Of a DNA stretch of 49,920 nucleotides, positions 237 to 14,477 are shown piece by piece. Position 1 is the stretch's first letter; each line of letters starts with the position of its first letter. The stretch is from an uncultured Candidatus Saccharibacteria bacterium (GTDB lineage Bacteria > Patescibacteriota > Minisyncoccia > 2-01-FULL-47-10 > JBBTYX01), in NCBI GenBank assembly GCA_964436845.1, contig CAYTEF010000001.1:1-49920 (forward strand), written 5' to 3'. The position numbers and the translations under genes are program-made. Under the pieces are notes generated by a model. It was not told where the DNA came from and ran no database searches. It was given only the letters and a program-made list of their open reading frames with translations.

Positions 237-242
237 CAACTT

Positions 243-1127: not shown

Positions 1128-1291
1128 GCCTAACCTGTTTATTTAATACGTTTTAGAAGTACGACATTCTATGTGAAATACATGGACTATGCACTCTTTG
1201 GGTAAGAGTTCGGGGTAAATCCTGTATGAGAAACAAAACACGCTCGGCGCCTTTGCGAGGTATCTTTTTAAGCTTTTTGAAAACATCCGGA

Positions 1292-1549
1292 TTAATTTGT
1301 AAAATCTAGTTTTCGTTTAAGTTCATTGAGGCTTAATACATTGCCTTTCTCTCTGTTCTTTCTCGCCTTAGATAAGGCGGACTTCTGCGTACGAGTCGCT
1401 TCAAACTCTTCAAACGGATATTCCTCTTGTAATAAGCTTCGAACACGTTCGGCAAGTTGAGCTTTTTTATGAGTCTCTCGTATGTATTTTTGGGAAAAGA
1501 AATCATTGATCTCATAGTATGTATATTGTAATAAAATAAGGTAAAACAA
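1292..1549 (-). CDS. Hypothetical small protein (85 aa)
   Basis: ORF evidence only. It competes with the alternative-frame ORF 1333..1593. The tail ...KGNVLSLNELKRKL looks protein-like, but no family was recognised. Confidence 0.3.
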   Translation of the reverse strand: MFYLILLQYTYYEINDFFSQKYIRETHKKAQLAERVRSLLQEEYPFEEFEATRTQKSALSKARKNREKGNVLSLNELKRKLDFTN

Positions 1550-1639
1550 TCAAGTGTATGTATGTGTCCACCATTGTATCTCATCTTGTGCATACTTCTC
1601 TATCCGGCAACCACCCCTCCCCCGACCACTCTTTGGGAT

Positions 1640-2377
1640 TCATTTTAGATTTTTTATAAACCCTACAAGCGGCTCTTCCCAACCAAAACACGTCTTGATC
1701 CCCTCAAGCTCGTGGAAAACTTTCGTACAAGAAGGATCTAATGTCGCGTATTCTTTAAGCATCTGTACAGTTTCCTCTATAAATCCACCCACGGTGCCGT
1801 CGGAATCATCAACACCGCCATAACTCAATTTTTTATCAAGCCGTAACAGCATATCAACGAGTAAGCTTGTCGTTTGCTCGCTTACGGGTAATTCCGAGAT
1901 AATTTTTGATAAACGGCCGCATCCTTCTGAAAGAGAATCCTGATAGGAAAACCAGATTCTGGAGGGGCCATTGTACGGTTTGATATATCGCATGGCGTCA
2001 GTAATTGATTTTTTAGCTGAAGACAGCTCTTTCTTGCTCAACGATCCCAACTTACCGCTGCACATGGGCTGACCGACAAGCCGCTTATCGTCATCGGTAA
2101 GCGGCTTCCCTTTCTTTAGCGCATAAATTGCTACCGCGACCATATGCTTACAAAGGGTATCGTTTTGACCAAGGTAACACTCGCAATTGCCGTGACTATA
2201 TCGGCGCTCATCAACAGACACTCTATACGGCTTTGTCCCAAGAACCACTGCAAAATACGCCCCCATTCCTTCCTCAAACTGCATCACCTTTCCGCTCTCA
2301 TAAAGCCCGACGGCTCTCTCAAACGTCCCTTCATCTGTTGCAAATTTTATTTTGTCCAAGTTAAATTTCTTCTGCAT
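1640..2377 (-). CDS. SWIM zinc-finger domain protein
   Basis: CxCx(n)CxH signature in GNCECYLGQNDTLCKHMVAVAIYAL. An in-frame TAG lies inside the terminal CRISPR repeat, so ATG 2377 is the first possible start. Confidence 0.75.
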   Translation of the reverse strand: MQKKFNLDKIKFATDEGTFERAVGLYESGKVMQFEEGMGAYFAVVLGTKPYRVSVDERRYSHGNCECYLGQNDTLCKHMVAVAIYALKKGKPLTDDDKRLVGQPMCSGKLGSLSKKELSSAKKSITDAMRYIKPYNGPSRIWFSYQDSLSEGCGRLSKIISELPVSEQTTSLLVDMLLRLDKKLSYGGVDDSDGTVGGFIEETVQMLKEYATLDPSCTKVFHELEGIKTCFGWEEPLVGFIKNLK

Positions 2378-2378
2378 A

Positions 2379-3347
2379 ATCTACAAAAGTAGAAATTGGA
2401 TATAGGGATTAGACCGAGTCGTAAATCCGCCTCTCAGATTATCTACAAAAGTAGAAATTGGATATAGGGATTAGACGAAAATGTCAAGCGATTCCAAGCC
2501 GCATCTACAAAAGTAGAAATTGGATATAGGGATTAGACTTTTGAGCAAGCTGAAAGAATAGCCAATCTACAAAAGTAGAAATTGGATATAGGGATTAGAC
2601 TTCAAGTCTATATACTGCAGTCTCAATCTACAAAAGTAGAAATTGGATATAGGGATTAGACTTTTTGGAATAAGTGTGGAAACAGGAATCTACAAAAGTA
2701 GAAATTGGATATAGGGATTAGACATAATTACCACGCTATCAGTGTAGAATATCTACAAAAGTAGAAATTGGATATAGGGATTAGACACTTTAGGATTAAA
2801 AAGTTCCTCATATCTACAAAAGTAGAAATTGGATATAGGGATTAGACCGAGGGGTTATCAGGGGAACTAAACGAGATCTACAAAAGTAGAAATTGGATAT
2901 AGGGATTAGACTTCAGCATCAACTGCGGCGTTGACCATCTACAAAAGTAGAAATTGGATATAGGGATTAGACATAAAAAACTATGCAAAACAATCAACCA
3001 TCTACAAAAGTAGAAATTGGATATAGGGATTAGACACAAACGGGAGGAAACGAAAATGATATATCTACAAAAGTAGAAATTGGATATAGGGATTAGACGT
3101 AAAACAATCACAGTAGAAGCAGATAATCTACAAAAGTAGAAATTGGATATAGGGATTAGACCAAGCATACTCCGATGGGATACAAAGATCTACAAAAGTA
3201 GAAATTGGATATAGGGATTAGACAAAAAATGTTACTGTTGAAGCAGTAGTATCTACAAAAGTAGAAATTGGATATAGGGATTAGACAAACAAGATATTGA
3301 ATCTTGGTTGCATCTACAAAAGTAGAAATTGGATATAGGGATTAGAC
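2379..3347 (-). CRISPR. CRISPR array, type V-A style: 16 repeats of 36 bp, 15 spacers of 25-28 bp
   Basis: Identical repeats (minus-strand reading GTCTAATCCCTATATCCAATTTCTACTTTTGTAGAT) start at 2379, 2441, 2503, 2565, 2626, 2688, 2751, 2812, 2876, 2937, 3000, 3063, 3126, 3188, 3251 and 3312. All spacers are unique. The repeat 3' end forms the TCTAC-TTTT-GTAGA stem-loop typical of the Cas12a crRNA handle. Orientation matches the cas genes. Confidence 0.97.
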
Positions 3348-3533
3348 TGCGGAAATGGCTTTGTTAAGCACTAAAGATACAAATAGCGCTGAAAGAGTCG
3401 CTACGACTTTTTGGCTCAACAAAGCCACTTTTTGTTTTAGGAAATCCATAAAGACAAAGGTTTCCGCAGATAAAATATTGGTCTAATCACGTACACGACA
3501 ATTTCCGCTTTTTCTATTTATTTTTCAAGGCGC
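3348..3533 (-). promoter_or_regulatory. Putative CRISPR leader
   Basis: A 186-bp non-coding gap between the cas2 stop and the cas-proximal repeat. The leader role is inferred from position and orientation. No promoter hexamers could be assigned confidently. Confidence 0.55.
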
Positions 3534-3815
3534 TTACTCAAAGACAATCACGTCTTTTTCCTCATTTTTTGCATAGCCGTAGCGGATTACCTTCTTCTGG
3601 CACGCTTCGCAAAACGGCATAATAACCACGCTATCGGCGTTCCTGAACTGCTTTTTATACCGTAATTCTACCTCACTAATCACATTTTGCAATACCCTTT
3701 GGCTATGCTTTACTTCGTAAACAGAATATTGGATTTTTCGCCCGAATTTCTTCAAGAATTTTGAAAATCTTGCCCGTACATTATTATATTCAAAATCATA
3801 CGACACAATAAGCAT
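3534..3815 (-). CDS. cas2: CRISPR-associated endoribonuclease Cas2
   Basis: 93 aa starting MLIVSYDFE..., with Cas2-like size and ferredoxin-like pattern. It lies immediately downstream of cas1 and upstream of the array. Confidence 0.88.
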   Translation of the reverse strand: MLIVSYDFEYNNVRARFSKFLKKFGRKIQYSVYEVKHSQRVLQNVISEVELRYKKQFRNADSVVIMPFCEACQKKVIRYGYAKNEEKDVIVFE

Positions 3816-3817
3816 GG

Positions 3818-4780
3818 TCAGCGTGAAATCTTAAAATGGGGAAAGGGGTTAGCCTCACTATTCATGAAAAATCGATAGTAGCCTTGCACGTAACGATACA
3901 TCTCTTCCTTATGGTTCATGATTGCCTCAAGAAATACCTGTGCGTATTTCGCGCTATGTTCGAACGAAAGCAAAAGATTCCCATTCCTTTGCTTAAAATC
4001 CTTTTCTTGAATTTTTTTAAGCGTATACAGCTTGAGTACTTCTCTATCAATAATCGCCCTAAACGGCTCAACAATATCGCAAGTAAGAGATTTTCTTTGG
4101 AAAAAAAGTTTATGGTAACACCCTTTATACGTATCAAATCCATAAAGACAAAGTAAAGCGTCAAGAGTGTTGAACATCATCGTATATCCTATATCAAGAA
4201 GGAAATTTGGAATATCTGGCTTTACGCGGGGCATACGCCACGACCACCCGATTGGCCCAAAATATTCCTTAAAAAATTCTTTTGATACATTACCCTCTAT
4301 GCCGCGTAATGAATCCTGTTTTCCTGCACTATCTATTGCTTCCATAATTTCTTTTTCGCGCGCGACGATATTTTCCCCTATTTCCCGCGATTTTAGAAGC
4401 GAAATCTGATTTGCCACTTTATTTTTTACGATTTGCCGCGCGATAAAGAGCTCCTTGTCGTCTTCCAACTCATACTGGCGCATTCTTAAAAGATAGTTGC
4501 CTTCTGATGCCGCGTTTATCGCGGCATAGGGTTCAAAATTATATTTCAAGAGGAAAAATGATACTCCAAGACGTCTTGCCTGCTTAATGAGCTCGCTGGT
4601 GAGCGAAATATCGCCAATGATAAACGCCGCAAATACCCGATGGCACGATGCCCTATTTGCCACTTTATCATCCTTCAAAAACACAATATTATCATTCTGA
4701 AATCTAATTTTATTGGAAACATTACGCTGGGTTTGAATAAAAAGAATCTGCTTTTGTTTGAAATCAGGTAACGTGATCAT
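3818..4780 (-). CDS. cas1: CRISPR-associated endonuclease Cas1
   Basis: The ORF 3818..4834 opens with GTG at 4834, which would overlap cas4 by 46 nt. ATG 4780 (MITLPDFKQKQILFIQ...) avoids the overlap and is preferred. Length of about 320 aa and the position between cas4 and cas2 fit Cas1. Confidence 0.85.
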   Translation of the reverse strand: MITLPDFKQKQILFIQTQRNVSNKIRFQNDNIVFLKDDKVANRASCHRVFAAFIIGDISLTSELIKQARRLGVSFFLLKYNFEPYAAINAASEGNYLLRMRQYELEDDKELFIARQIVKNKVANQISLLKSREIGENIVAREKEIMEAIDSAGKQDSLRGIEGNVSKEFFKEYFGPIGWSWRMPRVKPDIPNFLLDIGYTMMFNTLDALLCLYGFDTYKGCYHKLFFQRKSLTCDIVEPFRAIIDREVLKLYTLKKIQEKDFKQRNGNLLLSFEHSAKYAQVFLEAIMNHKEEMYRYVQGYYRFFMNSEANPFPHFKISR

Positions 4781-4788
4781 AAAGATTT

Positions 4789-5328
4789 TTACCAGCTTAG
4801 CGCGCCGTAAATGCTCATCTCGCATTTTGAACACCGATGCGACAGTAATGTTTTTGGATCAAAATTCCTTATTGCGCTCAATATTTCCTCAAACCTTATT
4901 CGTTCCTTATCGGAAGGAAGCGGGACATCATAGTTTCTATTATCTTCCAGCGAACGTAAAATGAGTTTTTTCACCGGATAGCCCATTTCTTCAAGACAAA
5001 AATATTGCGCGTATAGTTGGCATATATATCCTTCAAAAATCTGTTTAATCCGCGTTTTGCGCTCGATGAGTGTCTGTGTTTGGGTATCATACATGTCAAT
5101 CTTGCCCATAATTTCGTACTTCTGGCTATACACCTCAAGCCCCACAATGAATCGCCGTGCCGTGGAGTAAGTATTTTCATCTATTGCTTCATGGCGCAAC
5201 TTGCCCACCACCTGCGGCTTTTCATGATAGGTTTTTTGTGAAAACCCCTCATACATCCCATGCAAATACAGCGACGCCGGGCAATACAAGAAATCATTTA
5301 TTTTTGAGATTTGGATATAGGGCTCCAT
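4789..5328 (-). CDS. cas4: CRISPR-associated exonuclease Cas4 (RecB-like nuclease)
   Basis: N-terminal Cys in FLYCPASLY, GKIDMYD, LIERKTR (E-x-K), QLYAQY (QxxxY) and C-terminal CSKC. The start overlaps the cas12a stop by one base (TAATG at 5326-5330). Confidence 0.85.
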   Translation of the reverse strand: MEPYIQISKINDFLYCPASLYLHGMYEGFSQKTYHEKPQVVGKLRHEAIDENTYSTARRFIVGLEVYSQKYEIMGKIDMYDTQTQTLIERKTRIKQIFEGYICQLYAQYFCLEEMGYPVKKLILRSLEDNRNYDVPLPSDKERIRFEEILSAIRNFDPKTLLSHRCSKCEMSIYGALSW

Positions 5329-6932
5329 TATTTTTGAACAAATTTATCCCAGTCGTACTCAGAAATATATATATCAGGGTTTCCCGGTCTTGTCGTGATT
5401 GCATCAAGAATCAACTTGCCTTTGCGTGCAATATTATAAGCCCCATTAGCATCGCCGTTAAACTCCTTAATTATTCGCTCTCCTTCGGGTCCTATAATCT
5501 TATTTCTAAAGTTTGCTAAATTTAACGGCGATAAATTGCCATATTTCTCGCTCTTAGCATAGGTACTAAAAAATGGTCTGACGGGTGAAGCAATAAAATC
5601 TATGTCTTCGCCTACTGACTTTATTCTTGTCTCGCCGCGTTCATCTTCATAACTTTCCCATTTCTCAGAGAAAGAATTGCGAATCTGCATTACTATGTTA
5701 AACAAATAAATAAAAGCGTGGTAAAAACTTCGCTCTCTGCCATCTATTACATACTTTTCCTCTAATTCCCCATCTTGGATTTTACGACATATTTCATCAT
5801 GCAAATCTGCTGCTTGCGGATCTTCAAATTCCCATAGCCTAAATAACTCCCCGAATTTTTCATTTACATCTATAGGCGTATATTGCCAATAACCTTTCTC
5901 GTCTTTTTCGCGCCTAATACGTGGAACTTTTGCGTATACTGTCCAGCCCTTTTGCGGAGAATACACGATATTCTTATATCTTTCCTCCACAAAATTTTTA
6001 GGATTATAAGTAAAAAAGTAGCTTTGCTCTTCTTCACCCCATCCGATGGCATCAAATTTTTCTATCGTTTCTTTTATCTTCTTCTGCGATGCAGAATTGC
6101 TAACGTATACATTCTTGCGAAAACCGGTCAAAGGATCAGTGCCTGAAGTATACTCGGCTTGTGTATAGAAAATAATGCCGGTTTGCTTGCCCATTTTTTC
6201 AAATGATACAAAGGGAGCAGTCAATTGATAACCCTTTAAAACCCCGCCAAATTCATGCGATTGTCGATTCTTGAAGATCAAATAACCAAATTTATCTATC
6301 AGTTGTTTTTCCAGTTGCTGATATACGCTCCGTTCAATACCGCCGCGAATTTGTTTAAAGCGCATATTCAGATCCTCCATTACCACAATGGCGTTATAAT
6401 GAATTGCGAAGTCGGCTATTTTCCGAACAACCTGGGAAACATACCCTTTCTTAATATCTTTAATTTTTGCTACTGGACTCCACGATTGCCTATTTCGTAA
6501 GCGTTCCTTCTCACAATTTACGAGTTTATCTCTATAGTTCTGGCCATTTATTTCATTCAAACTACCTTGGTCAAGAATTTCGCCGTTTTGATTGATAATC
6601 GAATAGTACACCAAGTGCTTCTCGCCACGATCAAGACCAATAATATTGACTTTATTTTGTCTCGCGTACTTTGCTAATTCAACTCTTATATTTTTATTGT
6701 ATCCACCAACAAAAGGCAATAATTTTCTTTCCGACATTTGTGGCTTCCTTGCGGCATAGTTCAATATAATGGAAAGGTGTAAAAAATATTTTCTTTCTGT
6801 GTATCTATTATAAACAAATTTGATTACCCTGAATTTATCTCTTAAGAACTTTGTTATATCTTTACCTTTTTCTTTCGTAAGGATATGTTTAGGATTATCC
6901 TTAATACTCTTGGTAAATTCTCGTAGAAACAT
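5328..6932 (-). CDS. cas12a: Cas12a (Cpf1) C-terminal fragment: WED-III, RuvC and Nuc
   Basis: RuvC-I IIGLDRGEKHLVYY, RuvC-II VVMEDLNMRFKQ, TDPLTGF, QIRNS, DFIASPV and RuvC-III GDANGAYNIARKG. Cas12a-like sequence in this frame continues upstream of the first ATG to 7014 (KNIHTFYFEQLFSEQNLKDPIFKISGGSE). Confidence 0.9.
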   Translation of the reverse strand: MFLREFTKSIKDNPKHILTKEKGKDITKFLRDKFRVIKFVYNRYTERKYFLHLSIILNYAARKPQMSERKLLPFVGGYNKNIRVELAKYARQNKVNIIGLDRGEKHLVYYSIINQNGEILDQGSLNEINGQNYRDKLVNCEKERLRNRQSWSPVAKIKDIKKGYVSQVVRKIADFAIHYNAIVVMEDLNMRFKQIRGGIERSVYQQLEKQLIDKFGYLIFKNRQSHEFGGVLKGYQLTAPFVSFEKMGKQTGIIFYTQAEYTSGTDPLTGFRKNVYVSNSASQKKIKETIEKFDAIGWGEEEQSYFFTYNPKNFVEERYKNIVYSPQKGWTVYAKVPRIRREKDEKGYWQYTPIDVNEKFGELFRLWEFEDPQAADLHDEICRKIQDGELEEKYVIDGRERSFYHAFIYLFNIVMQIRNSFSEKWESYEDERGETRIKSVGEDIDFIASPVRPFFSTYAKSEKYGNLSPLNLANFRNKIIGPEGERIIKEFNGDANGAYNIARKGKLILDAITTRPGNPDIYISEYDWDKFVQK

Positions 6933-6967
6933 TTCCGATCCTCCGGAGATTTTGAAAATAGGATCTT

Positions 6968-9427
6968 TTAAATTTTGTTCAGAAAAAAGTTGTTCAAAAT
7001 AAAACGTGTGAATATTTTTTTAGATGCTGGCTTTTTAAATTCTTCCCAATCCTTATTCTTAAGAAGAAATAGGTATAGACTACCACTTTTGAGTTTATCT
7101 TCTACCTGACTTTTATCCATTGGTATAAATGCATTTTCCGAGTATATTTCAATGCATACATCATTAACCGCTTTAGTAAATTCCTTTTTACTTTGAAACT
7201 TTCCATCGACTAATGATTGTAGACCAGGGTGCTTTTTGAGATGCCGTTCTCTGATAAATTGTTGAGCATCCATGATTGCTCGACTTTCATCTTTCTGTTC
7301 CGTATATTGATAACCAAATATAGGTTTGAACGCCTTATTAATGATATTTTGAAACTTTAATTGCGATGCCGGAAAATAAAGATAATCGCTCATCTTTTTG
7401 ATTCCCACTTTTTCATCTAATTCACGTTCACCTTTTTTAAGCACTCCGAGATAGAATTTATCTCTTCCGTTTATCATGCTCTTAAATAAATAAGAATTGT
7501 ATTGTTTTGAAAAGCCCTGAAGTAGAGTATCTTTCTCGAAATTAAGCTTTATCTTATTTTCGTCAAATGGCTTCTTGGTTATATAGTTTCGGAAAGCATT
7601 ATAATACTTGATAAGTTGAAAATCCTTAGCGTACGGTTCTAACTGCGCATAAAACTCTGTGCTAATATCCGTAAGTTTAGCCATATCAAGTTCATCCAGG
7701 GCCAAATATTTCATCATTTGATAAATACGCAAAGCGGCATCGGCGTAATTTTTAACTTTCGCAATTTCGTCTTTTTTACGCGCCTTAGAAAAATGTTTCA
7801 GTGTACATGCTTCTTTTAAACGACTATCGTAGCCATAAATAATGATACCATCTTCTCTTGTAGTATCAGTAAACAAGCCTTCAAATTCATACTTCCACAT
7901 GCTTAGAAATTGTTTCCATGGCTGATGATCTTGCCGAATAACGCCTTTTCTATAAAAATCCTCTCTAAAAGGTCTATCCTCCAGTCTTTCAATGGCCTCT
8001 TTTATGTCAGAAATCGTCACAAACTTTTTTACCTTAATCACATCGTTTTCCTTTTTATTTGAGGAGACCTGTGGCAAGTTCCTTTCAAAATCATAACCAC
8101 TCGCAAACCAGCGGCGTGAAATAGTATTGATAGTAGAATTTCTTACATAGATCCTCTCGTATTCTGATGCAAATTCCTTATCAATAAGGAATACCTGCAT
8201 AAATTTCTTAGCAGCATCAAATCGCACCTCATTTGCTGCTATAAATTCCTTGAATCTTTCAATAAAAATTTCTTCTTCTGTTTTTTCTTCAGTAGCCTCT
8301 ATAAGCTGTGCTTGCTGCTCTATCTCGCCCAAAATTTGTTTCTCAAGAGTCCTGAAAGTAGGAAAATTGCTTTTCTTAAAATCACCCTTTGCCGTTTTTG
8401 CTTCGCTGATTTTTTTATCCCCGTACTCTTTTATGACTTTATTTATGCGCCCAATGACTTTATTGTAAGAATTATCGCTGTCCTCTGCACCTTCTAGCGC
8501 TTCAATATTTTTCTGCAAAAGATACTTACTGTAATTTTCTACTTTGAAAATGTCAGCTTGCTCAAGACCAATCTCTTGAAAATTATCTTTATACTTTTCG
8601 TCAAAAATCCTTGCATTTGCTGAAAACAAATCAAAATTACTCACGATGCGAGTGGCTAACGCAGTTGCCATACCATTATCCGCGTAAACATTTTTGCGCG
8701 TCGCTTGAAATTTCGTTAGGTAGCCGGAAAAACGATCAAAGCTATCAAAAATATACCGTCGTTTGTTTGGGTTTTCGCTTTCCTCTACAAATAAACTCGG
8801 CCAGCCCAGTTTTTTGTATTCCACGTCCTTTGATGCGGGGAACTCGTATTTAAGTATTTGTAGAACGCCCGCCGATGTAAGAAATCCGACCCCTTTTTCA
8901 TTTTCCCTTTCTTCGTTGTTGTTATTTCTCTTCCCAAAATTAATTGCACTCCCATCTTCCAATTTTTTGCCAAAATAATATTTTTTCCATTCGCCTGCCT
9001 GGCGATTAAACAAATTGACGATTTGTTTATAAAAATCTTCCTTTGTGTCCTGTACCTTTTTTCCAAGGCTATTTATTTCCTTTTGTATGGAATCAGTCGC
9101 TTCCCTTTTCTCTCGTGCCAATCGCAGCACGATTCGTTTTTCATTAAGCTTTTTCTTTATTCCTTGCAAAAATTGTGCAAATGCGCGAAAATCCAGCTCC
9201 GCTACCTCATCGGGAGCTAATGCAGTATCTATAAATCTCTGATGGAGTTTATCAAAGTAAAACTTTGCTTGGCTATAACTATCGTCAATAGTTTTATCTT
9301 TCTCAAAAACTTTATTCTCCTTTAAAAATTGTTCAGTTTCTCCCACCGGTTTTAACTCAAATCTCAACGTTTTAGAAAGCTGATATTTTCCAACAAATTG
9401 ATTAAAAATACTTTCTCCATTAATCAT
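6968..9427 (-). CDS. cas12a: Cas12a (Cpf1) N-terminal fragment: WED-I/II, REC lobe and PI
   Basis: The N-terminus FVGKYQLSKTLRFELKPVGETEQFL is the Cas12a signature. ...SLYLFLLKNKDWEEFKKPASKK then runs out of frame and stops at 6968. Confidence 0.9.
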   Translation of the reverse strand: MINGESIFNQFVGKYQLSKTLRFELKPVGETEQFLKENKVFEKDKTIDDSYSQAKFYFDKLHQRFIDTALAPDEVAELDFRAFAQFLQGIKKKLNEKRIVLRLAREKREATDSIQKEINSLGKKVQDTKEDFYKQIVNLFNRQAGEWKKYYFGKKLEDGSAINFGKRNNNNEERENEKGVGFLTSAGVLQILKYEFPASKDVEYKKLGWPSLFVEESENPNKRRYIFDSFDRFSGYLTKFQATRKNVYADNGMATALATRIVSNFDLFSANARIFDEKYKDNFQEIGLEQADIFKVENYSKYLLQKNIEALEGAEDSDNSYNKVIGRINKVIKEYGDKKISEAKTAKGDFKKSNFPTFRTLEKQILGEIEQQAQLIEATEEKTEEEIFIERFKEFIAANEVRFDAAKKFMQVFLIDKEFASEYERIYVRNSTINTISRRWFASGYDFERNLPQVSSNKKENDVIKVKKFVTISDIKEAIERLEDRPFREDFYRKGVIRQDHQPWKQFLSMWKYEFEGLFTDTTREDGIIIYGYDSRLKEACTLKHFSKARKKDEIAKVKNYADAALRIYQMMKYLALDELDMAKLTDISTEFYAQLEPYAKDFQLIKYYNAFRNYITKKPFDENKIKLNFEKDTLLQGFSKQYNSYLFKSMINGRDKFYLGVLKKGERELDEKVGIKKMSDYLYFPASQLKFQNIINKAFKPIFGYQYTEQKDESRAIMDAQQFIRERHLKKHPGLQSLVDGKFQSKKEFTKAVNDVCIEIYSENAFIPMDKSQVEDKLKSGSLYLFLLKNKDWEEFKKPASKKIFTRFILNNFFLNKI
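7015..7021 (-). other. cas12a: Frameshift site in cas12a (A7 homopolymer on the coding strand)
   Basis: The coding strand reads GCA TCT AAAAAAA TAT TCA CAC. With 8 A the reading would be ...PASKKNIHTFYF..., continuous with the downstream Cas12a frame. With 7 A the frame ends 15 codons later. Confidence 0.85.
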
Positions 9428-9468
9428 AAGAATGAAGGTGATTTAATAAAATCCTCCAAAGAAAAACT

Positions 9469-9546
9469 AAAAAAGGACGACGGTTGTCGCCCAACAGATA
9501 TTGCTTACCAAACGGTTAAGCGCTATTGGAACCGTCGCCCTTTTTT
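9469..9546. terminator. Terminator-like hairpin flanked by A6 and T6, in the cas12a upstream region
   Basis: GGACGACGGTT (9475-9485) pairs with AACCGTCGCCC (9530-9540). A compact alternative pairs 9475-9481 with 9486-9492. An A-run at 9469-9474 and a T-run at 9541-9546 give a U-tract on either strand. Confidence 0.45.
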
Positions 9547-9607
9547 AATCTCAAGGGCAACAAAATTCCGTTTGGCAACAAAACACATCTGTTTAAGCGA
9601 CGCTATC

Positions 9608-9635
9608 ATTATACGCATTGACGGAAAAAAGTCAA
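9608..9635 (-). promoter_or_regulatory. Candidate sigma70-type promoter for cas12a
   Basis: The minus strand reads TTGACT (9635-9630), a 16-nt spacer, then TATAAT (9613-9608). This predicts a 5' UTR of about 170 nt. Confidence 0.5.
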
Positions 9636-9688
9636 ATTTGCCTTGATACATTTACGGCGAAACGGCAGCCGCAAATAGGCGTTCAGTA

Positions 9689-9717
9689 TTGACTTTTGTA
9701 TAGGGTGGCGGTAATAT
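9689..9717 (+). promoter_or_regulatory. Candidate promoter divergent from cas12a
   Basis: TTGACT (9689-9694), a 17-nt spacer, then TAATAT (9712-9717). An overlapping perfect TATAAT lies at 9715-9720. Confidence 0.45.
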
Positions 9718-9723
9718 AATTGT

Positions 9724-9781
9724 ATCACGATGGGAGCAGGTTCATAAGGTGCCGTCCTTATGCAATTGGCTCCCGTTTTTT
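9724..9781 (+). ncRNA. Candidate small RNA of about 55-60 nt: a single long hairpin plus U-tract
   Basis: It lies downstream of the 9689-9717 promoter. GGGAGC (9732-9737) pairs with GCTCCC (9769-9774), and inner CATAAGG (9744-9750) pairs with CCTTATG (9756-9762). T6 follows at 9776-9781. There is no plus-strand ORF to terminate. Confidence 0.35.
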
Positions 9782-9839
9782 ATTGCCTTTTTTGCCCGCT
9801 TTTTGAAGGCGTTTTTTTCACTCAAAAGTGAACGTGTGT

Positions 9840-11522
9840 CTACCGCAACGGCGAACCGGTGGGATAGCGGTCAAGGTCCTGTTGGGTACTAAGAACTTCT
9901 ACATTTTCCCACTTCAATTTTCTTCGGGCAAAGGCTTTCTCATCTTTTACCCACTGCTTGACGCCATTTTTTAGGAAATAAACCCGATAATCATTTACAT
10001 AGCGGATTAAGCGGTCGCGCGTACTTTGTTCCTTTTGTTTTGCAACACTTATTCCGCGGCCAATGCAGTAAACCGGATCATCGCAGTTAATGTCTAAAAT
10101 AACACCGTCAATGTCTTTACGGAGCGCTGAATTCTCTTCTTCTTCCAAAGTCACATAAAGAATAAAATTCTTTCCCGCGCCGTCCGTCCAGTAGCCGTAA
10201 AGAAGCCCGTCTGTTGGCTGGGCAGGGAAACTTCCTTCAATGCTTCGTTTGCGGCTCTGGCCTTCGCGCTGATTGCCCGCCTGACTCACAAGCGCTGTTT
10301 TTAACTTTGCCCATATATTTTCGCGGCGGTGCGAAAGTTCCTCTTGCATTAAAGGATCACTGCCCACCTCGTCAAAATACGCCTTAAGGTATCCGTCAAC
10401 GCGCGAAAGATCGCTTACGCGTTTAGAATCGCGCGAACTTGTACGCTTGCCTGATGCGTCCTCGGTTACATAGTGAATAGTAAGCTCTCGCAAAATAGAC
10501 GTTACATTGGGACTGGAAGAAGAAAAGACTGCTTTCCAGCGAAGCTCTCTGCCCGTGGTAGAAAAAAGCACGCGCTCGCCTGCATTGCCGCTAAACCAAT
10601 GATCGCCATTATCAGGAGAAAAAAGATAGGTAAGCGAGCTTCCCGAAGGAGTTGAGGCATCGTGAGAGAGGGTTAATTCCACCACATCAAAAGTACCGCG
10701 GGCGCGAATCGTGCGCGATTCTACCGACATGCCTGCCCCATATCCATTATCCTGAATTAAAAATACTTCCTTACCATCGGCAATGATCATGCCTCCGCCT
10801 GAAACGTCTGTCTCAAGGGAGTGAATACCAAAGTCAACGCGAGGCACCTGTCCAAAGACATTTACCAGGATTAAGCCGTCAAAGTAGGAAAGATTTCTCC
10901 CACCTCCTGAAAAAAACCACGCATTTCCCGACCATGCAACTTGCGTGCGCGAAGAGACGCGTAATTCTTTAAGCTCGTTATTTGCTTCCTCGCGCCACAC
11001 CCCGGACCGGAAGGAGAAAAAGCGCGCGGGAGAAATAGTATAAATTACCAAAAATTCATTGGAATTTTTTACTCCAATGGAAAATGATCCCAATCGCTTG
11101 TCAGAAAAAAGCGAAGGGGAATGAAGGAGTGTTGCTTTTCCTGCCTCAATCAAATAGATACGACCCACCCAGTCTTTTGAAATTTCATCGCGCGAAAATC
11201 CAAAAAGCAACACACCCGAAGGAGTAACTTTGCAGCCGATATTTCGCTCAAGTAAAGTAAGATTATGATCGCTTATGAGCTTTTTTGCATCGCACATAAA
11301 TTTCTCAAGCGCGGAGAGGGGAAGTTGGCGCGCGCCATAGGTACGGCTTGCTATAACGCGCCGCCCCAATGAATCGTACCAAGCCGAGGTAAAATTAAAA
11401 TCAAGCGATCCCGGAGATCGTAAGCTCTGACTAACCGTAAATTCCTCGCGAAAAACGCTCTTTGCGGGGAGAGCTAAAAATATTCCTATAAAAACAAGGA
11501 AGAGCAGGGTATATCTTTTCAT
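9840..11522 (-). CDS. Hypothetical secreted protein (560 aa)
   Basis: Long ORF with an N-terminal signal-like segment MKRYTLLFLVFIGIFLALPAKS. No domain was recognised. Confidence 0.7.
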   Translation of the reverse strand: MKRYTLLFLVFIGIFLALPAKSVFREEFTVSQSLRSPGSLDFNFTSAWYDSLGRRVIASRTYGARQLPLSALEKFMCDAKKLISDHNLTLLERNIGCKVTPSGVLLFGFSRDEISKDWVGRIYLIEAGKATLLHSPSLFSDKRLGSFSIGVKNSNEFLVIYTISPARFFSFRSGVWREEANNELKELRVSSRTQVAWSGNAWFFSGGGRNLSYFDGLILVNVFGQVPRVDFGIHSLETDVSGGGMIIADGKEVFLIQDNGYGAGMSVESRTIRARGTFDVVELTLSHDASTPSGSSLTYLFSPDNGDHWFSGNAGERVLFSTTGRELRWKAVFSSSSPNVTSILRELTIHYVTEDASGKRTSSRDSKRVSDLSRVDGYLKAYFDEVGSDPLMQEELSHRRENIWAKLKTALVSQAGNQREGQSRKRSIEGSFPAQPTDGLLYGYWTDGAGKNFILYVTLEEEENSALRKDIDGVILDINCDDPVYCIGRGISVAKQKEQSTRDRLIRYVNDYRVYFLKNGVKQWVKDEKAFARRKLKWENVEVLSTQQDLDRYPTGSPLR

Positions 11523-11563
11523 GCGGTATTATTCTACCACCTTTTATTAATTTTGTAAAGACC

Positions 11564-11593
11564 TTGAACCTTCCTATCTTTTCACGCTATAAT
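11564..11593 (+). promoter_or_regulatory. Candidate promoter of the 11606-15186 operon
   Basis: TTGAAC (11564-11569), an 18-nt spacer, then TATAAT (11588-11593). The ATG lies 12 nt after the -10 box and no SD is present. Confidence 0.5.
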
Positions 11594-11605
11594 AGACCTT
11601 CAATT

Positions 11606-12385
11606 ATGAAATTACCCGAACATTTAGCAAGCAGCATGCAGAAATACTGGGATAAGCAAGAATCGCTATTTAAAGAAATAAAAAAGGCCGGCGGAATTAA
11701 TACCTACGTTAACTCCTTTGAAAAAAAGGGTGGGTTATTTACGCTGGAAAATCGTTCCGTTTGCTGTATAGATGAACGAACGACGCAAGGAAAAATCCAT
11801 TACGCGGGTTCGGGTATTCTTGATAGAGATCAGGCAATTAATCGTATAAAAAATATAGAAGCCGATGGCGTTTATAGCCACGAAGAATGCGGAGCCGCGG
11901 CCTTGGCATTTAAAGGCCTCTCGGAAGAGGAAAAGGAGAAATTTCAAACCCCTGAAGCATACGCGAAGTGGTGGGCAGAGCATGTTTCAAAAGAGCTCGG
12001 TATTCCTTATAAAGGACACCTGGAGACACATCCCAAATTCCACATCGCGCGCGTGAGCTATTATGACGGCACCGGACGATTTGATCCTTCGCAATCTGAT
12101 AAGCTTCCGCCGGGATTTTTGATAAGCCGCGCGTACCTTGACCCTGAATATGCGGCAAAGGAATTGGATTTAAGTGTCGCTATCGCCTTTGGCAAGGACG
12201 CTTTTGGAAAAGAAAAATTTATTGAATCGCCTTTCCTCATTATCCCTGTCGCGGATAAAGAAAGTTCCCACCTCACCCTTGAAATGCTTAAAGAAGAAGC
12301 GCAAAAGATCGCAAAAAATTATGAAGGGAAGGTAATTGTTGACGGATTGAGTGTTGATCTTGCCTCTCTTTTGCAAAAACCATGA
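11606..12385 (+). CDS. Hypothetical protein with beta-carbonic-anhydrase-like CxDxR and HxxCG motifs
   Basis: VCCIDERT and, 38 residues later, SHEECGAAA. The ORF-track start at 11564 is TTG and lies inside the promoter, so ATG 11606 (MKLPEHL...) is preferred. The stop overlaps the next gene (ATGA). Confidence 0.6.
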   Translation: MKLPEHLASSMQKYWDKQESLFKEIKKAGGINTYVNSFEKKGGLFTLENRSVCCIDERTTQGKIHYAGSGILDRDQAINRIKNIEADGVYSHEECGAAALAFKGLSEEEKEKFQTPEAYAKWWAEHVSKELGIPYKGHLETHPKFHIARVSYYDGTGRFDPSQSDKLPPGFLISRAYLDPEYAAKELDLSVAIAFGKDAFGKEKFIESPFLIIPVADKESSHLTLEMLKEEAQKIAKNYEGKVIVDGLSVDLASLLQKP

Positions 12386-13494
12386 GACTCATGGAAATTG
12401 AGGGGAAAAAACTTTTTGAGAAGTATGGCATTGCCATTCCTCAAGGCATACTCGCTAACGGGAAAGAGCGCCTTGCCCCGCTTGCCTCACCCGCCGTCAT
12501 TAAAGCACAGACGCTTTCGGGAAATCGCAAAAAAGAAGGCGGTATTTTTTTTGCGCGCGATACGCGAATGGCGCAAAGAGGCATTGCAAAAATCATAGGA
12601 AAAACCATCAGCGGAGAAAAAGTAAGGGAAGTGCTGGTTGAAGAAAAAATTTCTGCCGTAAAAGAATATTACATAGGCATCAGCTACGACACCGACGAAA
12701 GAGGACCCGTCCTTTTACTTTCACCCAAAGGCGGATCAGGTGTGACGAAGGCAAAAGCGATTCCCATTCATTTCAGCCTGGGCGTTCCTCCTTTTTTCTT
12801 GCGCGCGGCTTTAAAGGAGGCAGGGTTTTCCCTTGATGATGCTTCGGGCATTATTCCAGTTATTCAAAAATTATGGAAATTATTCTTGAATGAATATGCG
12901 CTTCTTGCCGAAATTAATCCCCTCTTTAAAACGAAAAAAGGAGACTTCATCGCCGGGGATGCAAAAATTATTTTGGACGATGAAAAGGTGAAGCCGGGCG
13001 AAAGACGATTTATTGAAATGGGAGGAAACATCGCGATTTTGGCTTCCGGTGGGGGCGCTTCACTCTTAAATATTGACGCACTCATGGGACACGGGGGAAA
13101 GCCGGCAAATTATACGGAGTATTCGGGAAATCCAAAAGGAGAAGTGGTAAGAGAACTTACTAAGCGCGTTTTAAATAAAGAAGGATTAAAAGGATGCTGG
13201 GTGGTGGGAGGAACGGCAAACTTTACCGACATTCATGAAACGATGAAGGGATTCGTGGAAGGGTTGCGCCAAGTTACACCAAAGCCCTCATACCCCATTG
13301 TTATCCGCCGCGACGGACCAAGGCAAAAGGAAGCGTTTGAAATGTTAAGTCAAGCGGCAAAAGAAGAAGGATATCAGTTTTACCTTTTTGGAGGCGAGAC
13401 GGCGATGGCTCAGACGGCGAGGATTATGGTGAAGTTGGCATATGATGATTCAAAGCGTAAAGCGAAAAGCGAAAAGCGTAAAATAATAACGTAA
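12382..13494 (+). CDS. sucC: Succinyl-CoA synthetase beta-like ATP-grasp subunit (possible citryl-CoA synthetase large subunit)
   Basis: N-terminus MEIEGKKLFEKYGIAIP, LAEINPL, and GNIAILASGGGASLLNIDALMGHGGKPANYTEYSG, which matches the SucC CoA-ligase region. Confidence 0.8.
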   Translation: MRLMEIEGKKLFEKYGIAIPQGILANGKERLAPLASPAVIKAQTLSGNRKKEGGIFFARDTRMAQRGIAKIIGKTISGEKVREVLVEEKISAVKEYYIGISYDTDERGPVLLLSPKGGSGVTKAKAIPIHFSLGVPPFFLRAALKEAGFSLDDASGIIPVIQKLWKLFLNEYALLAEINPLFKTKKGDFIAGDAKIILDDEKVKPGERRFIEMGGNIAILASGGGASLLNIDALMGHGGKPANYTEYSGNPKGEVVRELTKRVLNKEGLKGCWVVGGTANFTDIHETMKGFVEGLRQVTPKPSYPIVIRRDGPRQKEAFEMLSQAAKEEGYQFYLFGGETAMAQTARIMVKLAYDDSKRKAKSEKRKIIT

Positions 13495-13562
13495 AACTAA
13501 AAATATTTTTAATTTTGCATCGTTGCTTTGCATTTTTCGTTTTTCGCTTTACACTTAAATTC

Positions 13563-14477
13563 ATGAGCATCTTAATAGACGAAAAAACAAACGTATTGAT
13601 CCAGGGAATCACGGGCAATGAGGGTTCGCGCGCGTGCCGCGAGATTCTTTTATATGGAACAAAGGTACGCGCAGGGGTTACGCCGGGAAAAGCGGGACAA
13701 AAAGTGCATCGTGTTCCGGTCTATGATACAATCAAGGAAGCATTGAAAAAGTATCCTGATATTAATACCTCGCTCATCGCGGTTCCGGCAGCATTTGTAA
13801 AAGATGCCGCAATGGAGGCGATATGGAATAAAATTCCTTTAATTGATATTCTAACCGAGCACGTGCCCACCGAGGATAGTGCCATGATCCTTGCATTCGC
13901 TCGCGAACGCGGAATGCGCCTTGTGGGGCCTGCTTCCGTTGGCATCATCTCTCCGGAAAAAGCAAAAGTGGGAAGTATTGGAAGCTCGGAAGTTGAGAAA
14001 GTATTTAAAAAAGGAGGGATCGGCGTTGTCTCAAAGAGTGGGGGCATGACCGCAGAAATCGCCTCTATTCTTACGCGGGCAGGGTTTGGACAGAGTACGG
14101 TGGTGGGAATAGGGGGAGACCAGATTATAGGATCTGATTTTTGCGATATCCTTGAACTATTTGAAAAAGACAGCGAGACAAAAGCGGTTGTCATGTTTGG
14201 AGAAATTGGCGGCACATACGAGGAAAAGGCGGCAGAATATATTCGCGAAGGGAAGTATAGCAAGCCAGCGGTTGCCATTATTGCAGGAAAATTTACTTCA
14301 TACCTCCCAAAGGAAACCGTGCTGGGCCACGCGGGCGCTATAGTGGCAAAAGGCCGCGGCAGTTATGCGTCAAAGGTGAGCGCGTTAAAGCGCGCCGGGG
14401 TGCTTATGGCAAAAACATTGGAGGAAATTCCCATACTTTTAAAGAAGGTACGTTATGAAGTGGCGAACATCCATTAG
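13563..14477 (+). CDS. sucD: Succinyl-CoA synthetase alpha-like subunit (possible citryl-CoA synthetase small subunit)
   Basis: MSILIDEKTNVLIQGITGNEG, GVVSKSGGMT, GQSTVVGIGGD and the phosphohistidine loop LGHAGAIV. ATG 13563 is preferred over the ORF-track start at 13515. Confidence 0.85.
   Translation: MSILIDEKTNVLIQGITGNEGSRACREILLYGTKVRAGVTPGKAGQKVHRVPVYDTIKEALKKYPDINTSLIAVPAAFVKDAAMEAIWNKIPLIDILTEHVPTEDSAMILAFARERGMRLVGPASVGIISPEKAKVGSIGSSEVEKVFKKGGIGVVSKSGGMTAEIASILTRAGFGQSTVVGIGGDQIIGSDFCDILELFEKDSETKAVVMFGEIGGTYEEKAAEYIREGKYSKPAVAIIAGKFTSYLPKETVLGHAGAIVAKGRGSYASKVSALKRAGVLMAKTLEEIPILLKKVRYEVANIH

What the first reader, a model, noticed from the sequence alone, without database searches (positions are those of the whole stretch)
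6932..7025. cas12a is interrupted by a one-base deficit in an A7 run while every catalytic motif stays intact
The coding strand reads ...CCA GCA TCT AAAAAAA TAT TCA CAC... (T-run at 7015-7021 on the plus strand).
- With 7 A, the N-terminal frame ends 15 codons later at 6968.
- With 8 A, it would read ...KKPASKKNIHTFYFEQLFSEQNLKDPIFKISGGSEMFLRE... This aligns with the conserved Cas12a segment just before RuvC-I and gives one protein of about 1365 aa.
- No other lesion is visible in either half.

Four explanations are possible:
1. A homopolymer sequencing or assembly error.
2. A very recent inactivating mutation.
3. Rescue by transcriptional slippage or a -1 ribosomal slip on the poly-A tract. 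Such rescue is documented for poly-A tracts in reduced endosymbiont genomes, and for programmed frameshifting in dnaX and IS elements.
4. A naturally split effector, with the C-terminal half restarting at ATG 6932.
Basis: seen in the sequence. Interest (0 to 1): 0.7.

Follow-up and report, generated by a model that had tools for sequence, protein, structure and literature searches.

The report
Cas12a gene broken by one-base deletion
A CRISPR nuclease gene (cas12a) in an uncultured Patescibacteria genome is cut in two by the loss of one A from a run of eight, most likely a young ordinary loss-of-function mutation rather than a programmed frameshift or a natural two-piece enzyme.

Summary
On the minus strand, a complete type V-A locus (cas12a-cas4-cas1-cas2-leader-16 repeats) has cas12a split at an A7 run (7015-7021) into ORFs of 819 and 534 aa. 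One extra A gives a 1366-aa Cas12a.

The restored protein aligns without a gap to 59 one-piece homologues. It keeps 239 of 246 highly conserved columns, including the RuvC Asp/Glu/Asp and the Nuc Arg.

Close relatives read TCx-xxx-AAA-AAT at this site. The A8 tract is therefore specific to this lineage, and the split is not conserved.

- **Artefact:** less likely. A separate MEGAHIT contig (ENA) has the same A7. The other 45 sense-strand A7/A8 runs in the window are in frame, and no other gene is broken.
- **Programmed recoding:** unsupported. The run is short, no stimulatory RNA structure is predicted, and relatives do not share the shift.
- **Functional split enzyme:** unsupported. A restart at ATG 6932 has a good GGAGGA ribosome-binding site, but it would omit 28 conserved WED-domain residues whose codons are still intact.

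Best reading (about 0.6): a real, recent A8-to-A7 deletion that inactivates an accessory, horizontally acquired defence locus. It matches the published fragmented CasY of CPR Roizmanbacteria. Only read pile-ups can settle it. Interest is low.

The parts
6968..9427 (-). cas12a 5' ORF. It has 819 codons: 804 native residues (WED-I, REC1/REC2, PI, start of WED-III), then 15 out-of-frame codons and TAA.
   Evidence: (Pfam REC1)
7015..7021 (-). A7 run where the frame breaks. A8 (AAA AAA AAT = K K N) would restore the frame.
7020..7022 (-). TAA in the downstream (C-terminal) frame, overlapping the start of the run. It closes that frame upstream, so the shift must occur in or just after the run.
6968..6970 (-). 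TAA that ends the 5' ORF, 15 codons after the run.
6933..7016 (-). 84 nt that encode the 28 conserved residues NIHTFYFEQLFSEQNLKDPIFKISGGSE in the C-terminal frame (H807, Y810, N819 and E832 are at least 93% conserved). As the sequence stands, neither ORF translates them.
6939..6944 (-). GGAGGA Shine-Dalgarno-like motif, 6 nt upstream of ATG 6932. It is formed by the Gly-Gly codons of the SGGSEM motif. Four relatives use other Gly codons here.
5328..6932 (-). cas12a 3' ORF from ATG 6932 (534 aa): rest of WED-III, RuvC-I/II/III and Nuc. D933, E1018, D1326 and R1250 (restored-protein numbering) are present.
4789..5328 (-). cas4 (179 aa). Its ATG overlaps the cas12a stop (TAATG).
3818..4834 (-). 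cas1. The longest ORF is 338 aa. The ENA gene call of 335 aa starts at 4825.
3534..3815 (-). cas2 (93 aa).
3348..3533 (-). Putative leader between cas2 and the first repeat.
   Evidence: sequence; position inferred
2379..3347 (-). CRISPR array. It has 16 identical 36-nt repeats, GTCTAATCCCTATATCCAATTTCTACTTTTGTAGAT, ending in the canonical V-A handle, and 15 spacers of 25-28 nt.

Best explanation
cas12a carries a real one-base deletion in the genome. A lineage-specific A8 tract (Lys-Lys-Asn, AAA AAA AAT), at the start of the conserved NIHTxYF segment of WED-III, has slipped to A7 during replication.

As the sequence stands, translation yields an 819-aa N-terminal fragment. It probably also yields a 534-aa C-terminal fragment, restarted at ATG 6932 behind a GGAGGA site. 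Neither fragment contains the 28 conserved residues between them, so the effector is most likely inactive. At most a trace of full-length protein would arise from unselected polymerase or ribosome slippage.

The event is evolutionarily very recent, because nothing else in the locus has decayed. It hit an accessory, horizontally acquired defence island in a Patescibacteria (CPR) genome. That is the kind of locus in which loss of function is common and sometimes favoured.

Shown directly: the anatomy, the conservation, the lack of conservation of the shift in relatives, agreement with a second assembly, and the island context. Inferred: that the deletion is in the DNA rather than in the consensus, that the fragments are inactive, and that the C fragment is translated.
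For: 1. **One extra A restores a normal Cas12a.**
   - The restored protein is 1366 aa.
   - It aligns gap-free across the junction with 59 homologues and with solved Cas12a structures.

2. **No decay elsewhere in the locus.**
   - 239 of 246 columns that are at least 93% conserved are kept. The 7 deviations are mostly conservative (I/L, L/F, K/R; also L357T and K371Q), against a family median of 6.
   - cas4, cas1 and cas2 have normal lengths.
   - All 16 repeats are identical.

3. **The shift is not conserved.**
   - The four closest relatives whose DNA was read (59-61% identity) have TCC CTT AAA AAT, TCT CAA AAA AAG, TCT ATG AAA AAT and TCT GAG AAA AAT at the site.
   - All are single ORFs of 1364-1403 aa, with 6-12 in-frame A7/A8 runs each.

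4. **Evidence against a sequencing artefact.**
   - ENA contig ERZ27284378 k139_283000 (5457 bp; the name is MEGAHIT-style) is 100% identical to window 6113-11569, including the A7.
   - The window has 46 sense-strand A7/A8 runs in its ORFs, and only this one breaks a frame.
   - Ten other adjacent-ORF junctions are distinct families with full-length Pfam matches.
   - Coding density is about 93% with no other split gene.

5. **Accessory-island context.**
   - A sister-species contig, L018, is collinear on both flanks but has other genes in place of the CRISPR-cas locus.
   - Island GC is 34-42% against 44-47% in the flanks.

6. **Published precedent.** A CPR Roizmanbacteria CasY (Cas12d) is fragmented by an A5-to-A4 deletion present in all reads, with its RuvC motifs intact (PMC6509639).

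7. **Other damaged cas12a genes exist in public data** (L017, L015, L016).
Against: - No reads were available, so A7 versus A8 in the DNA is not verified directly.
- The second assembly may share reads or samples with the MAG. All five related contigs are 100% identical to the window, so it is one clonal population, not independent lineages.
- A perfect GGAGGA plus ATG restart 36 nt after the stop is a mild coincidence. The background rate is 17 such internal sites in 14,956 codons, which gives roughly 5% for a 40-codon stretch. It could hint at use of the C fragment.
- No self-targeting spacer was found to explain selection for loss, but only 50 kb of the genome could be searched.
Confidence: 0.6

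Rival explanations
1. Sequencing or assembly artefact. The organism has A8 and an intact 1366-aa Cas12a, and the consensus lost one A.
For: - Homopolymers are the classic place for consensus indel errors.
- The gene is otherwise perfect, which is exactly what an artefact would look like.
- Contigs of this population in the ENA and Logan assemblies are short, 0.8-5.5 kb. That suggests modest coverage.
Against: - A separately assembled contig gives the same A7. Its k139 name is MEGAHIT-style, which suggests short-read data.
- None of the other 45 sense-strand A7/A8 runs, nor any other gene in 49.9 kb, shows a frameshift. A homopolymer-prone technology is therefore unlikely.
- The exact intact 1366-aa protein is absent from a collection of 15 billion proteins.
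Confidence: 0.15
2. Reversible on/off switch, or a 'saviour indel'. The A8/A7 tract acts as a contingency tract: cells flip Cas12a off, for example to tolerate a self-targeting spacer or a prophage, and can flip back. The sampled population happens to be in the off state.
For: - The locus is otherwise fully intact, so a one-base reversion would restore it.
- The A8 tract is a lineage-specific gain.
- The published CPR case linked CasY fragmentation to self-targeting spacers.
- The concept of a saviour indel with low-level compensatory frameshifting is established for the G7 run of herpes thymidine kinase (PMC5009743).
Against: - A8 is not special here. Eight other in-frame sense A8 runs and 37 A7 runs occur in the same 50 kb.
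- No tract-length variation was seen. All available contigs are identical, and only one other contig covers the site.
- No self-target was found in the window or in any fetched locus.
Confidence: 0.08
3. Selected recoding. Full-length Cas12a is made on purpose from the A7 allele, either by transcriptional slippage (+1 A) or by -1 ribosomal slippage on U AAA AAA A. This would set a low Cas12a level or produce two products.
For: - A -1 slip of the P-site Lys-tRNA from AAA to AAA would re-pair perfectly and would give ...SKKNIH..., the homologous reading (inferred).
- Poly-A rescue is documented for tssM1 with A11 at about 20% (PMC4256274) and for Thermus dnaX with a run of nine A/T (PMC5009743).
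Against: - The run has only 7 A. In a GFP assay, E. coli RNA polymerase gave no detectable rescue below 8 A (PMC6260861).
- Transcript insertion frequency rises exponentially with run length, and no frame-restoring event was seen in Buchnera (PMC5574713).
- U AAA AAA is not a canonical X XXY YYZ heptamer.
- There is no Shine-Dalgarno-like element 10-14 nt upstream.
- The downstream RNA is less structured than shuffled controls, z = +0.95 and +1.52.
- No relative shares the frameshift.
Confidence: 0.05
4. Natural two-piece effector. The 819-aa and 534-aa products assemble into an active Cas12a.
For: - A strong GGAGGA site sits 6 nt before ATG 6932 and 36 nt after the upstream stop. It is unique to this genome among five compared, so the C fragment is probably translated.
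- Engineered split Cas12a proteins can be reconstituted (my own knowledge, not checked here).
Against: - The two ORFs omit 28 residues of WED-III, including four columns that are at least 93% conserved: H807, Y810, N819 and E832. From memory of the AsCas12a structure, the Asn and His of this motif contact the crRNA 5' handle.
- Those 84 nt still encode the consensus peptide in a frame that would no longer be read, so there has been no time for adaptation to a split state.
- All 118 other listed homologues are single proteins.
- Short C-terminal-only Cas12a entries in the representative library vary widely in size. The three whose contigs were read were a nonsense mutant and two truncated remnants.
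Confidence: 0.04

Closest known systems
Fragmented CasY (Cas12d, 'fCasY') of CPR Roizmanbacteria (Chen et al. 2019, PMC6509639)
   Same: - A type V effector in a CPR bacterium, broken by loss of a single A from an A-run, with a TAA a few codons downstream.
- The RuvC motifs are all preserved.
- An adaptation gene (Cas1) and the array are still present.
   Different: - That case had a second, nonsense, lesion.
- Its deletion was verified in all reads.
- It carried 12 self-targeting spacers.
- Here there is one lesion, no read data, and no self-target in the 50 kb available.
- The effector here is Cas12a and the tract is A8 to A7.
Canonical type V-A CRISPR-Cas (FnCas12a, PDB 5NG6/5NFV; ReChb, 8QWD)
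   Same: - Gene order cas12a-cas4-cas1-cas2-array.
- A 36-nt repeat ending AAUUUCUACUUUUGUAGAU.
- REC1, RuvC and Nuc domains with the catalytic Asp/Glu/Asp and Arg.
   Different: The effector gene is not one ORF. It is only 26-36% identical to solved Cas12a proteins and about 60% identical to its nearest metagenomic relatives.
Transcriptional-slippage rescue of interrupted genes (C. rodentium tssM1 with A11; Thermus dnaX with a run of nine A/T; Buchnera and Blochmannia poly-A tracts)
   Same: A poly-A tract sits just before a premature stop, and one added A restores the frame.
   Different: - Those tracts are 9-11 A or longer and give roughly 20-50% rescue.
- The slippery tract recurs in a related tssM gene (Y. 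pseudotuberculosis tssM3).
- This tract is 7 A, specific to this lineage, and below the detectable threshold for E. coli RNA polymerase.
dnaX / IS-type programmed -1 ribosomal frameshifting
   Same: An A-rich slippery sequence over Lys codons, where a -1 shift gives the longer product.
   Different: - There is no A AAA AAG heptamer in phase.
- There is no upstream Shine-Dalgarno-like stimulator.
- There is no downstream stem-loop.
- The site is not conserved.
'Saviour indel' with leaky frameshifting (herpes simplex thymidine kinase G7 run; Atkins et al. 2016, PMC5009743)
   Same: A homopolymer indel switches a gene off, while a trace of frameshifting could supply a little product.
   Different: That case has experimental proof and a known selective agent. 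Here both the leak and the benefit are hypothetical.

Membership tests
Type V-A CRISPR-Cas (Cas12a) | RuvC-I/II/III catalytic Asp, Glu, Asp and the Nuc-domain Arg | tested here: met
   D933, E1018, D1326 and R1250 of the restored protein fall in columns that are at least 93% conserved. Pfam RuvC_1 scores 2e-79 and NUC 1.6e-13.
Type V-A CRISPR-Cas (Cas12a) | Helical REC lobe, and full-length similarity to known Cas12a | tested here: met
   Pfam REC1. phmmer against the PDB gives 2e-96 to ReChb and 9e-90 to FnCas12a. 118 full-length homologues were listed.
Type V-A CRISPR-Cas (Cas12a) | 36-nt repeat whose 3' end forms the AAUUUCUAC-N4-GUAGAU handle, with the array next to cas4-cas1-cas2 | tested here: met
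   There are 16 identical repeats ending AATTTCTACTTTTGTAGAT. cas4, cas1 and cas2 were identified by Pfam.
Type V-A CRISPR-Cas (Cas12a) | Effector encoded as one uninterrupted ORF | tested here: not met
   Two ORFs of 819 and 534 aa lie in different frames.
Type V-A CRISPR-Cas (Cas12a) | WED-domain RNase residues for pre-crRNA processing (Fn H843, K852, K869) | tested here: inconclusive
   A clade-conserved His (KHILTK) lies 4 residues from the position aligned to Fn H843. The Lys positions do not align cleanly in this variable loop.
Programmed -1 ribosomal frameshift (dnaX / IS type) | In-phase X XXY YYZ slippery heptamer | tested here: not met
   The zero-frame phasing is UCU AAA AAA AUA, so the heptamer is U AAA AAA.
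Programmed -1 ribosomal frameshift (dnaX / IS type) | Stimulatory downstream RNA structure, upstream Shine-Dalgarno-like element, or both | tested here: not met
   The downstream 90 nt fold at -8.9 kcal/mol, z = +0.95. The 101-nt context gives z = +1.52. No GGAGG or AGGAG lies within 20 nt upstream.
Programmed -1 ribosomal frameshift (dnaX / IS type) | Frameshift site conserved among orthologues | tested here: not met
   The listed homologues are single ORFs, and the tract is absent from the four relatives whose DNA was read.
Productive transcriptional slippage site | A/T run long enough for efficient slippage (about 9 or more in bacteria) | tested here: not met
   The run is 7 A. Thresholds come from PMC6260861 and PMC5009743.
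Productive transcriptional slippage site | mRNA population heterogeneous in run length | not testable with these tools
   No transcriptome or read data are available.
Phase-variable contingency locus | Tract length varies between cells, strains or samples | tested here: inconclusive
   Only one other contig covers the site, and it is identical. Other contigs of the locus from four assemblies are 100% identical but do not reach the site.
Frameshift-fragmented type V effector of CPR bacteria (fCasY-like) | Single-A deletion in an A-run, catalytic motifs retained, rest of the locus present | tested here: met
.
Frameshift-fragmented type V effector of CPR bacteria (fCasY-like) | Deletion fixed in the read population | not testable with these tools
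   No reads are available.
Frameshift-fragmented type V effector of CPR bacteria (fCasY-like) | Self-targeting spacers in the array | tested here: inconclusive
   No match with up to 4 mismatches was found in the 49.9-kb window or in 18 other fetched loci. The rest of the genome is unavailable.

The most novel reading that the evidence does not exclude
The A7 allele is a selected 'throttled' state of CRISPR immunity in a CPR bacterium. A lineage-specific A8 tract would let Cas12a be switched off, and back on, by replication slippage. In the off state, rare transcriptional or ribosomal slippage, and possibly the two separately translated fragments, would still supply a low level of activity. 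That level would be enough for crRNA handling or weak immunity without lethal self-targeting.
Probability: 0.08. Interest if true: 0.55.

Novelty: new member of a known kind. Interest (0 to 1): 0.2.

Why it matters
If the main reading is right, this is an ordinary event: an accessory CRISPR effector caught just after a homopolymer frameshift.

- **For annotators and enzyme miners.** The restored 1366-aa sequence is a bona fide, apparently undamaged Cas12a from a poorly sampled clade (about 60% identical to anything else). It could be rescued by adding one base.
- **As a data point.** It is a second example, after fCasY, of a CPR type V effector disabled by a single-A deletion. CRISPR systems are rare in these bacteria.
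- **What would raise its importance.** Read or transcript data would have to show A7/A8 heterogeneity, or the A7 allele would have to show activity.

Tried and rejected
1. **A closer relative or an intact allele.**
   - The genome contigs protein scan with the N half found nothing.
   - A JGI metagenome scan tolerant of A6-A10 at the site found nothing.
   - A JGI scan with the repeat found nothing.
   - An exact look-up of the restored 1366-aa protein was negative.
   - A junction-spanning protein search returned only one distant hit and missed the window's own ORFs. The first search also missed the C-half entry P0121. These absences are therefore weak evidence.

2. **Recurrent natural split at this position.**
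   - The C half was searched against 1.84 billion representatives.
   - Short hits span 280-1106 aa with no clear clustering.
   - The three whose contigs I read were a TAA nonsense mutant (L017) and two N-terminally truncated remnants (L015, L016). Rejected.

3. **Other frameshifted genes as a sign of error-prone sequencing.**
   - Junctions flagged by a homopolymer scan all proved to be distinct full-length families.
   - The pair 13515-14477 / 14455-15186 looked like a split AclA. It fits separate citryl-CoA synthetase and lyase genes instead. That is my interpretation.

4. **Protospacers.** Five spacers searched against IMG/VR gave no hit. There were no self-targets.

5. **L023.** Its Cas2 is at least 90% identical, which raised hope of a close cas12a. 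Its Cas12a is only 28-30% identical.

6. **Structure prediction.** Not run. The restored sequence is not a literal window sequence, and the PDB alignments already place the segment.

Full report
**Observation**

The sequence is as described.
- On the minus strand the text reads CCA GCA TCT AAAAAAA TAT TCA CAC, with the A7 run at 7021-7015.
- The ORF starting at 9427 reads ...KKPASKK, then 15 out-of-frame codons, and stops at TAA 6970-6968. It is 819 aa.
- The other frame reads KNIHTFYFEQLFSEQNLKDPIFKISGGSEMFLRE... and is open to 5328.
- That frame is closed just upstream by a TAA (7022-7020) that overlaps the start of the run. The frame change is therefore confined to the run or the 15 codons after it.
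- Adding one A gives a single 1366-aa ORF.

**What the locus is**

It is a complete type V-A CRISPR-Cas locus on the minus strand.
- The N half hits Pfam REC1. The C half hits RuvC_1 (2e-79) and NUC.
- The next three genes are Cas4, Cas1 and Cas2.
- After a 186-nt leader come 16 perfectly identical 36-nt repeats, GTCTAATCCCTATATCCAATTTCTACTTTTGTAGAT, which end in the canonical Cas12a handle. There are 15 spacers of 25-28 nt.
- The restored protein matches solved Cas12a structures, 2e-96 to ReChb 8QWD and 9e-90 to FnCas12a. The alignment runs straight across the junction...LYLFLLKNKDWEEFKKPASKKNIHTFYFEQLF... against ...[30 protein letters not shown]....

**State of the gene apart from the frameshift**

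- Against 59 full-length homologues, the restored protein keeps 239 of 246 columns that are at least 93% conserved.
- Its 7 deviations are mostly conservative (I/L, L/F, K/R; also L357T and K371Q). The family median is 6.
- D933, E1018 and D1326 (RuvC) and R1250 (Nuc) are present.
- The putative RNase His is present in a clade-conserved KHI motif. The Lys partners could not be aligned with confidence.
- cas4 (179 aa), cas1 and cas2 (93 aa) have the same lengths as in relatives.

There is therefore no sign of decay other than the one missing base.

**Is the shift a conserved feature?**

No.
- The nearest homologues are only 59-61% identical, and all are single proteins of 1364-1403 aa.
- In the four whose DNA I fetched, the site reads TCC CTT AAA AAT, TCT CAA AAA AAG, TCT ATG AAA AAT and TCT GAG AAA AAT.
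- The Lys-Asn (AAA AAT) is ancestral. The preceding codon became AAA only in this lineage, which created an A8 tract. The window has that tract minus one base.
- The relatives carry 6-12 A7/A8 runs per cas12a gene, all in frame.

**Artefact or real?**

- The N-terminal ORF, with its out-of-frame tail, is also encoded on ENA contig ERZ27284378 k139_283000 (5457 bp). That contig is 100% identical to window 6113-11569.
- The window itself is a whole 49,920-bp NCBI contig. At least two assemblies therefore agree on A7.
- Other pieces of the locus occur, 100% identical, in ERZ27284376, ERZ27284380 and a Logan assembly of SRR8863434. They do not reach the site.
- Within the window there are 63 A/T runs of 7 or more. 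In the ORFs there are 46 sense-strand A7/A8 runs, and only this one interrupts a gene.
- Every other close ORF junction joins two different families with near full-length Pfam matches.
- The only ORF-free stretch at the contig end is a gene that runs off the end.

This is not the profile of a homopolymer-error-prone data set. Without reads, a single consensus error cannot be excluded. I put it at about 0.15.

**Programmed recoding?**

- A -1 slip of a P-site Lys-tRNA on the run would give the homologous reading, so a trace of read-through is mechanistically possible. This is an inference.
- Nothing suggests design. U AAA AAA is not an in-phase X XXY YYZ heptamer, and no Shine-Dalgarno-like element precedes it.
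- The RNA downstream is less structured than shuffled controls, z = +0.95 and +1.52.
- For transcriptional slippage, productive bacterial sites have 9-11 A or T.
- Transcript insertion frequency rises exponentially with run length, and no frame-restoring events were seen in Buchnera.
- E. coli RNA polymerase gave no detectable rescue below 8 A.

**A working two-piece enzyme?**

- ATG 6932 is preceded by GGAGGA at a spacing of 6 nt and lies 36 nt after the upstream stop. The C fragment is therefore probably translated.
- This Shine-Dalgarno-like motif is unique to the window. The four relatives use GGC/GGT/GGG codons for the same Gly-Gly.
- Such internal SD-plus-ATG sites occur 17 times in 14,956 codons of the window. 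One falling within about 40 codons of the break has roughly a 5% chance, which is a mild coincidence.
- Against function, the two ORFs omit residues 805-832 (NIHTFYFEQLFSEQNLKDPIFKISGGSE). This is one of the best conserved stretches of WED-III and holds four columns that are at least 93% conserved.
- Those 84 nt still encode the consensus peptide in a frame that would no longer be used. The split state has therefore had no time to evolve.
- Searching the C half against 1.84 billion representative proteins gave C-terminal-only entries of widely varying length. The three contigs I read were a TAA nonsense mutant 24 codons upstream of the equivalent site (L017) and two truncated remnants (L015, L016).

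**Context**

- YchF next to the array is 76% identical to a Candidatus Portnoybacteria protein, and other named hits are Patescibacteria.
- A sister-species contig, L018 (YchF 89% identical), is collinear with window 242-1127 and 9853-13433. It carries four unrelated small genes where the window has the SWIM-like ORF, the array and the cas genes.
- The island has 34-42% GC against 44-47% in the flanks.
- The locus is thus an accessory, probably horizontally acquired, defence island.
- No spacer matches the window, the fetched loci or IMG/VR.

**Comparison with what is known**

- The closest precedent is the fragmented CasY (Cas12d) of CPR Roizmanbacteria. There, an A5-to-A4 deletion present in all reads, plus a nonsense change, split the effector while leaving the RuvC motifs intact. 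That locus carried self-targeting spacers (PMC6509639).
- The present case is the Cas12a counterpart with a single lesion.
- It resembles slippage-rescued genes such as tssM1 and dnaX only in having a poly-A tract before a stop. It fails their defining features.

**Verdict**

The most likely explanation (about 0.6) is a real, very recent A8-to-A7 deletion that inactivates Cas12a in an accessory island.

| Alternative | Estimated probability |
|---|---|
| Sequencing or assembly artefact | 0.15 |
| Reversible off state | 0.08 |
| Selected recoding | 0.05 |
| Functional split enzyme | 0.04 |

This is a new member of a known kind and of low general interest. The restored sequence is a usable, divergent Cas12a.

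Noticed in passing
window 1128-9852; L018 2324-5958: The whole CRISPR-cas locus, plus a SWIM-like ORF, occupies a variable slot between conserved flanks (YchF and a 560-aa ORF). A sister-species contig has four unrelated small genes in that slot. The island has 34-42% GC against 44-47% in the flanks.
   Followed up: partly
window 12382-15186: Three adjacent genes look like a two-step citrate-cleavage set (citryl-CoA synthetase plus citryl-CoA lyase): ATP-grasp_2+Citrate_bind, CoA_binding+Ligase_CoA, and a 243-aa citrate-synthase C-terminal domain. That is unexpected in a Patescibacteria genome. The nearest GTDB representatives are only about 30% identical (Thermoplasmata, Paenibacillus). The first of these genes also begins at the end of the sister contig L018.
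   Followed up: partly
window 9428-9839 (minus strand): A near-consensus promoter-like site (TTGACT-16-TATAAT, 9635-9608) is followed by a terminator-like hairpin with a T-run (9492-9475), before the cas12a ATG at 9427. This could be a short leader or a small transcript. Rfam finds nothing there.
   Followed up: partly
window 1640-2377 (minus strand): A 245-aa ORF with a weak SWIM zinc-finger hit starts 1 nt after the last CRISPR repeat. Its function is unknown. L018 has a 243-aa zinc-finger ORF at the same relative position with no detectable sequence similarity.
   Followed up: no
window 9840-11522 (minus strand): A 560-aa ORF directly upstream of cas12a has no Pfam hit. It is conserved (about 78%) at the same place in the sister species, which lacks the CRISPR locus, so it is not part of the cas island.
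   Followed up: partly
L017 3040-3200 (ENA ERZ28613037): Another cas12a with a single lesion. An in-frame TAA replaces the Tyr of the LYLFQI motif, 24 codons upstream of the equivalent of the window's break. The result is ORFs of 728 and 511 aa.
   Followed up: partly
L015 and L016 2881-4446 (GCA_022705465.1, GCA_002069415.1): A 521-aa C-terminal Cas12a remnant (RuvC+Nuc) with no N-terminal half upstream is present in two NCBI assemblies. In L015 a YchF gene lies downstream.
   Followed up: no
L023 4034-10282 (Logan SRR6202010): A Cas2 at least 90% identical to the window's sits beside a 1477-aa Cas12a that is only 28-30% identical. This suggests exchange of adaptation modules between distant V-A effectors.
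   Followed up: partly
window 18107-48657: A roughly 30-kb surface-polysaccharide / nonulosonic-acid cluster. It includes two NeuB+SAF genes, a UDP-GlcNAc 2-epimerase, GDP-mannose 4,6-dehydratase, several glycosyltransferases, a Wzx-like flippase and aminotransferases.
   Followed up: no
tool behaviour: The word-indexed protein search did not return the window's own C-terminal ORF (P0121), although it is in the collection. With a 263-aa junction query it returned neither half. Negative results from that tool are weak evidence.
   Followed up: yes
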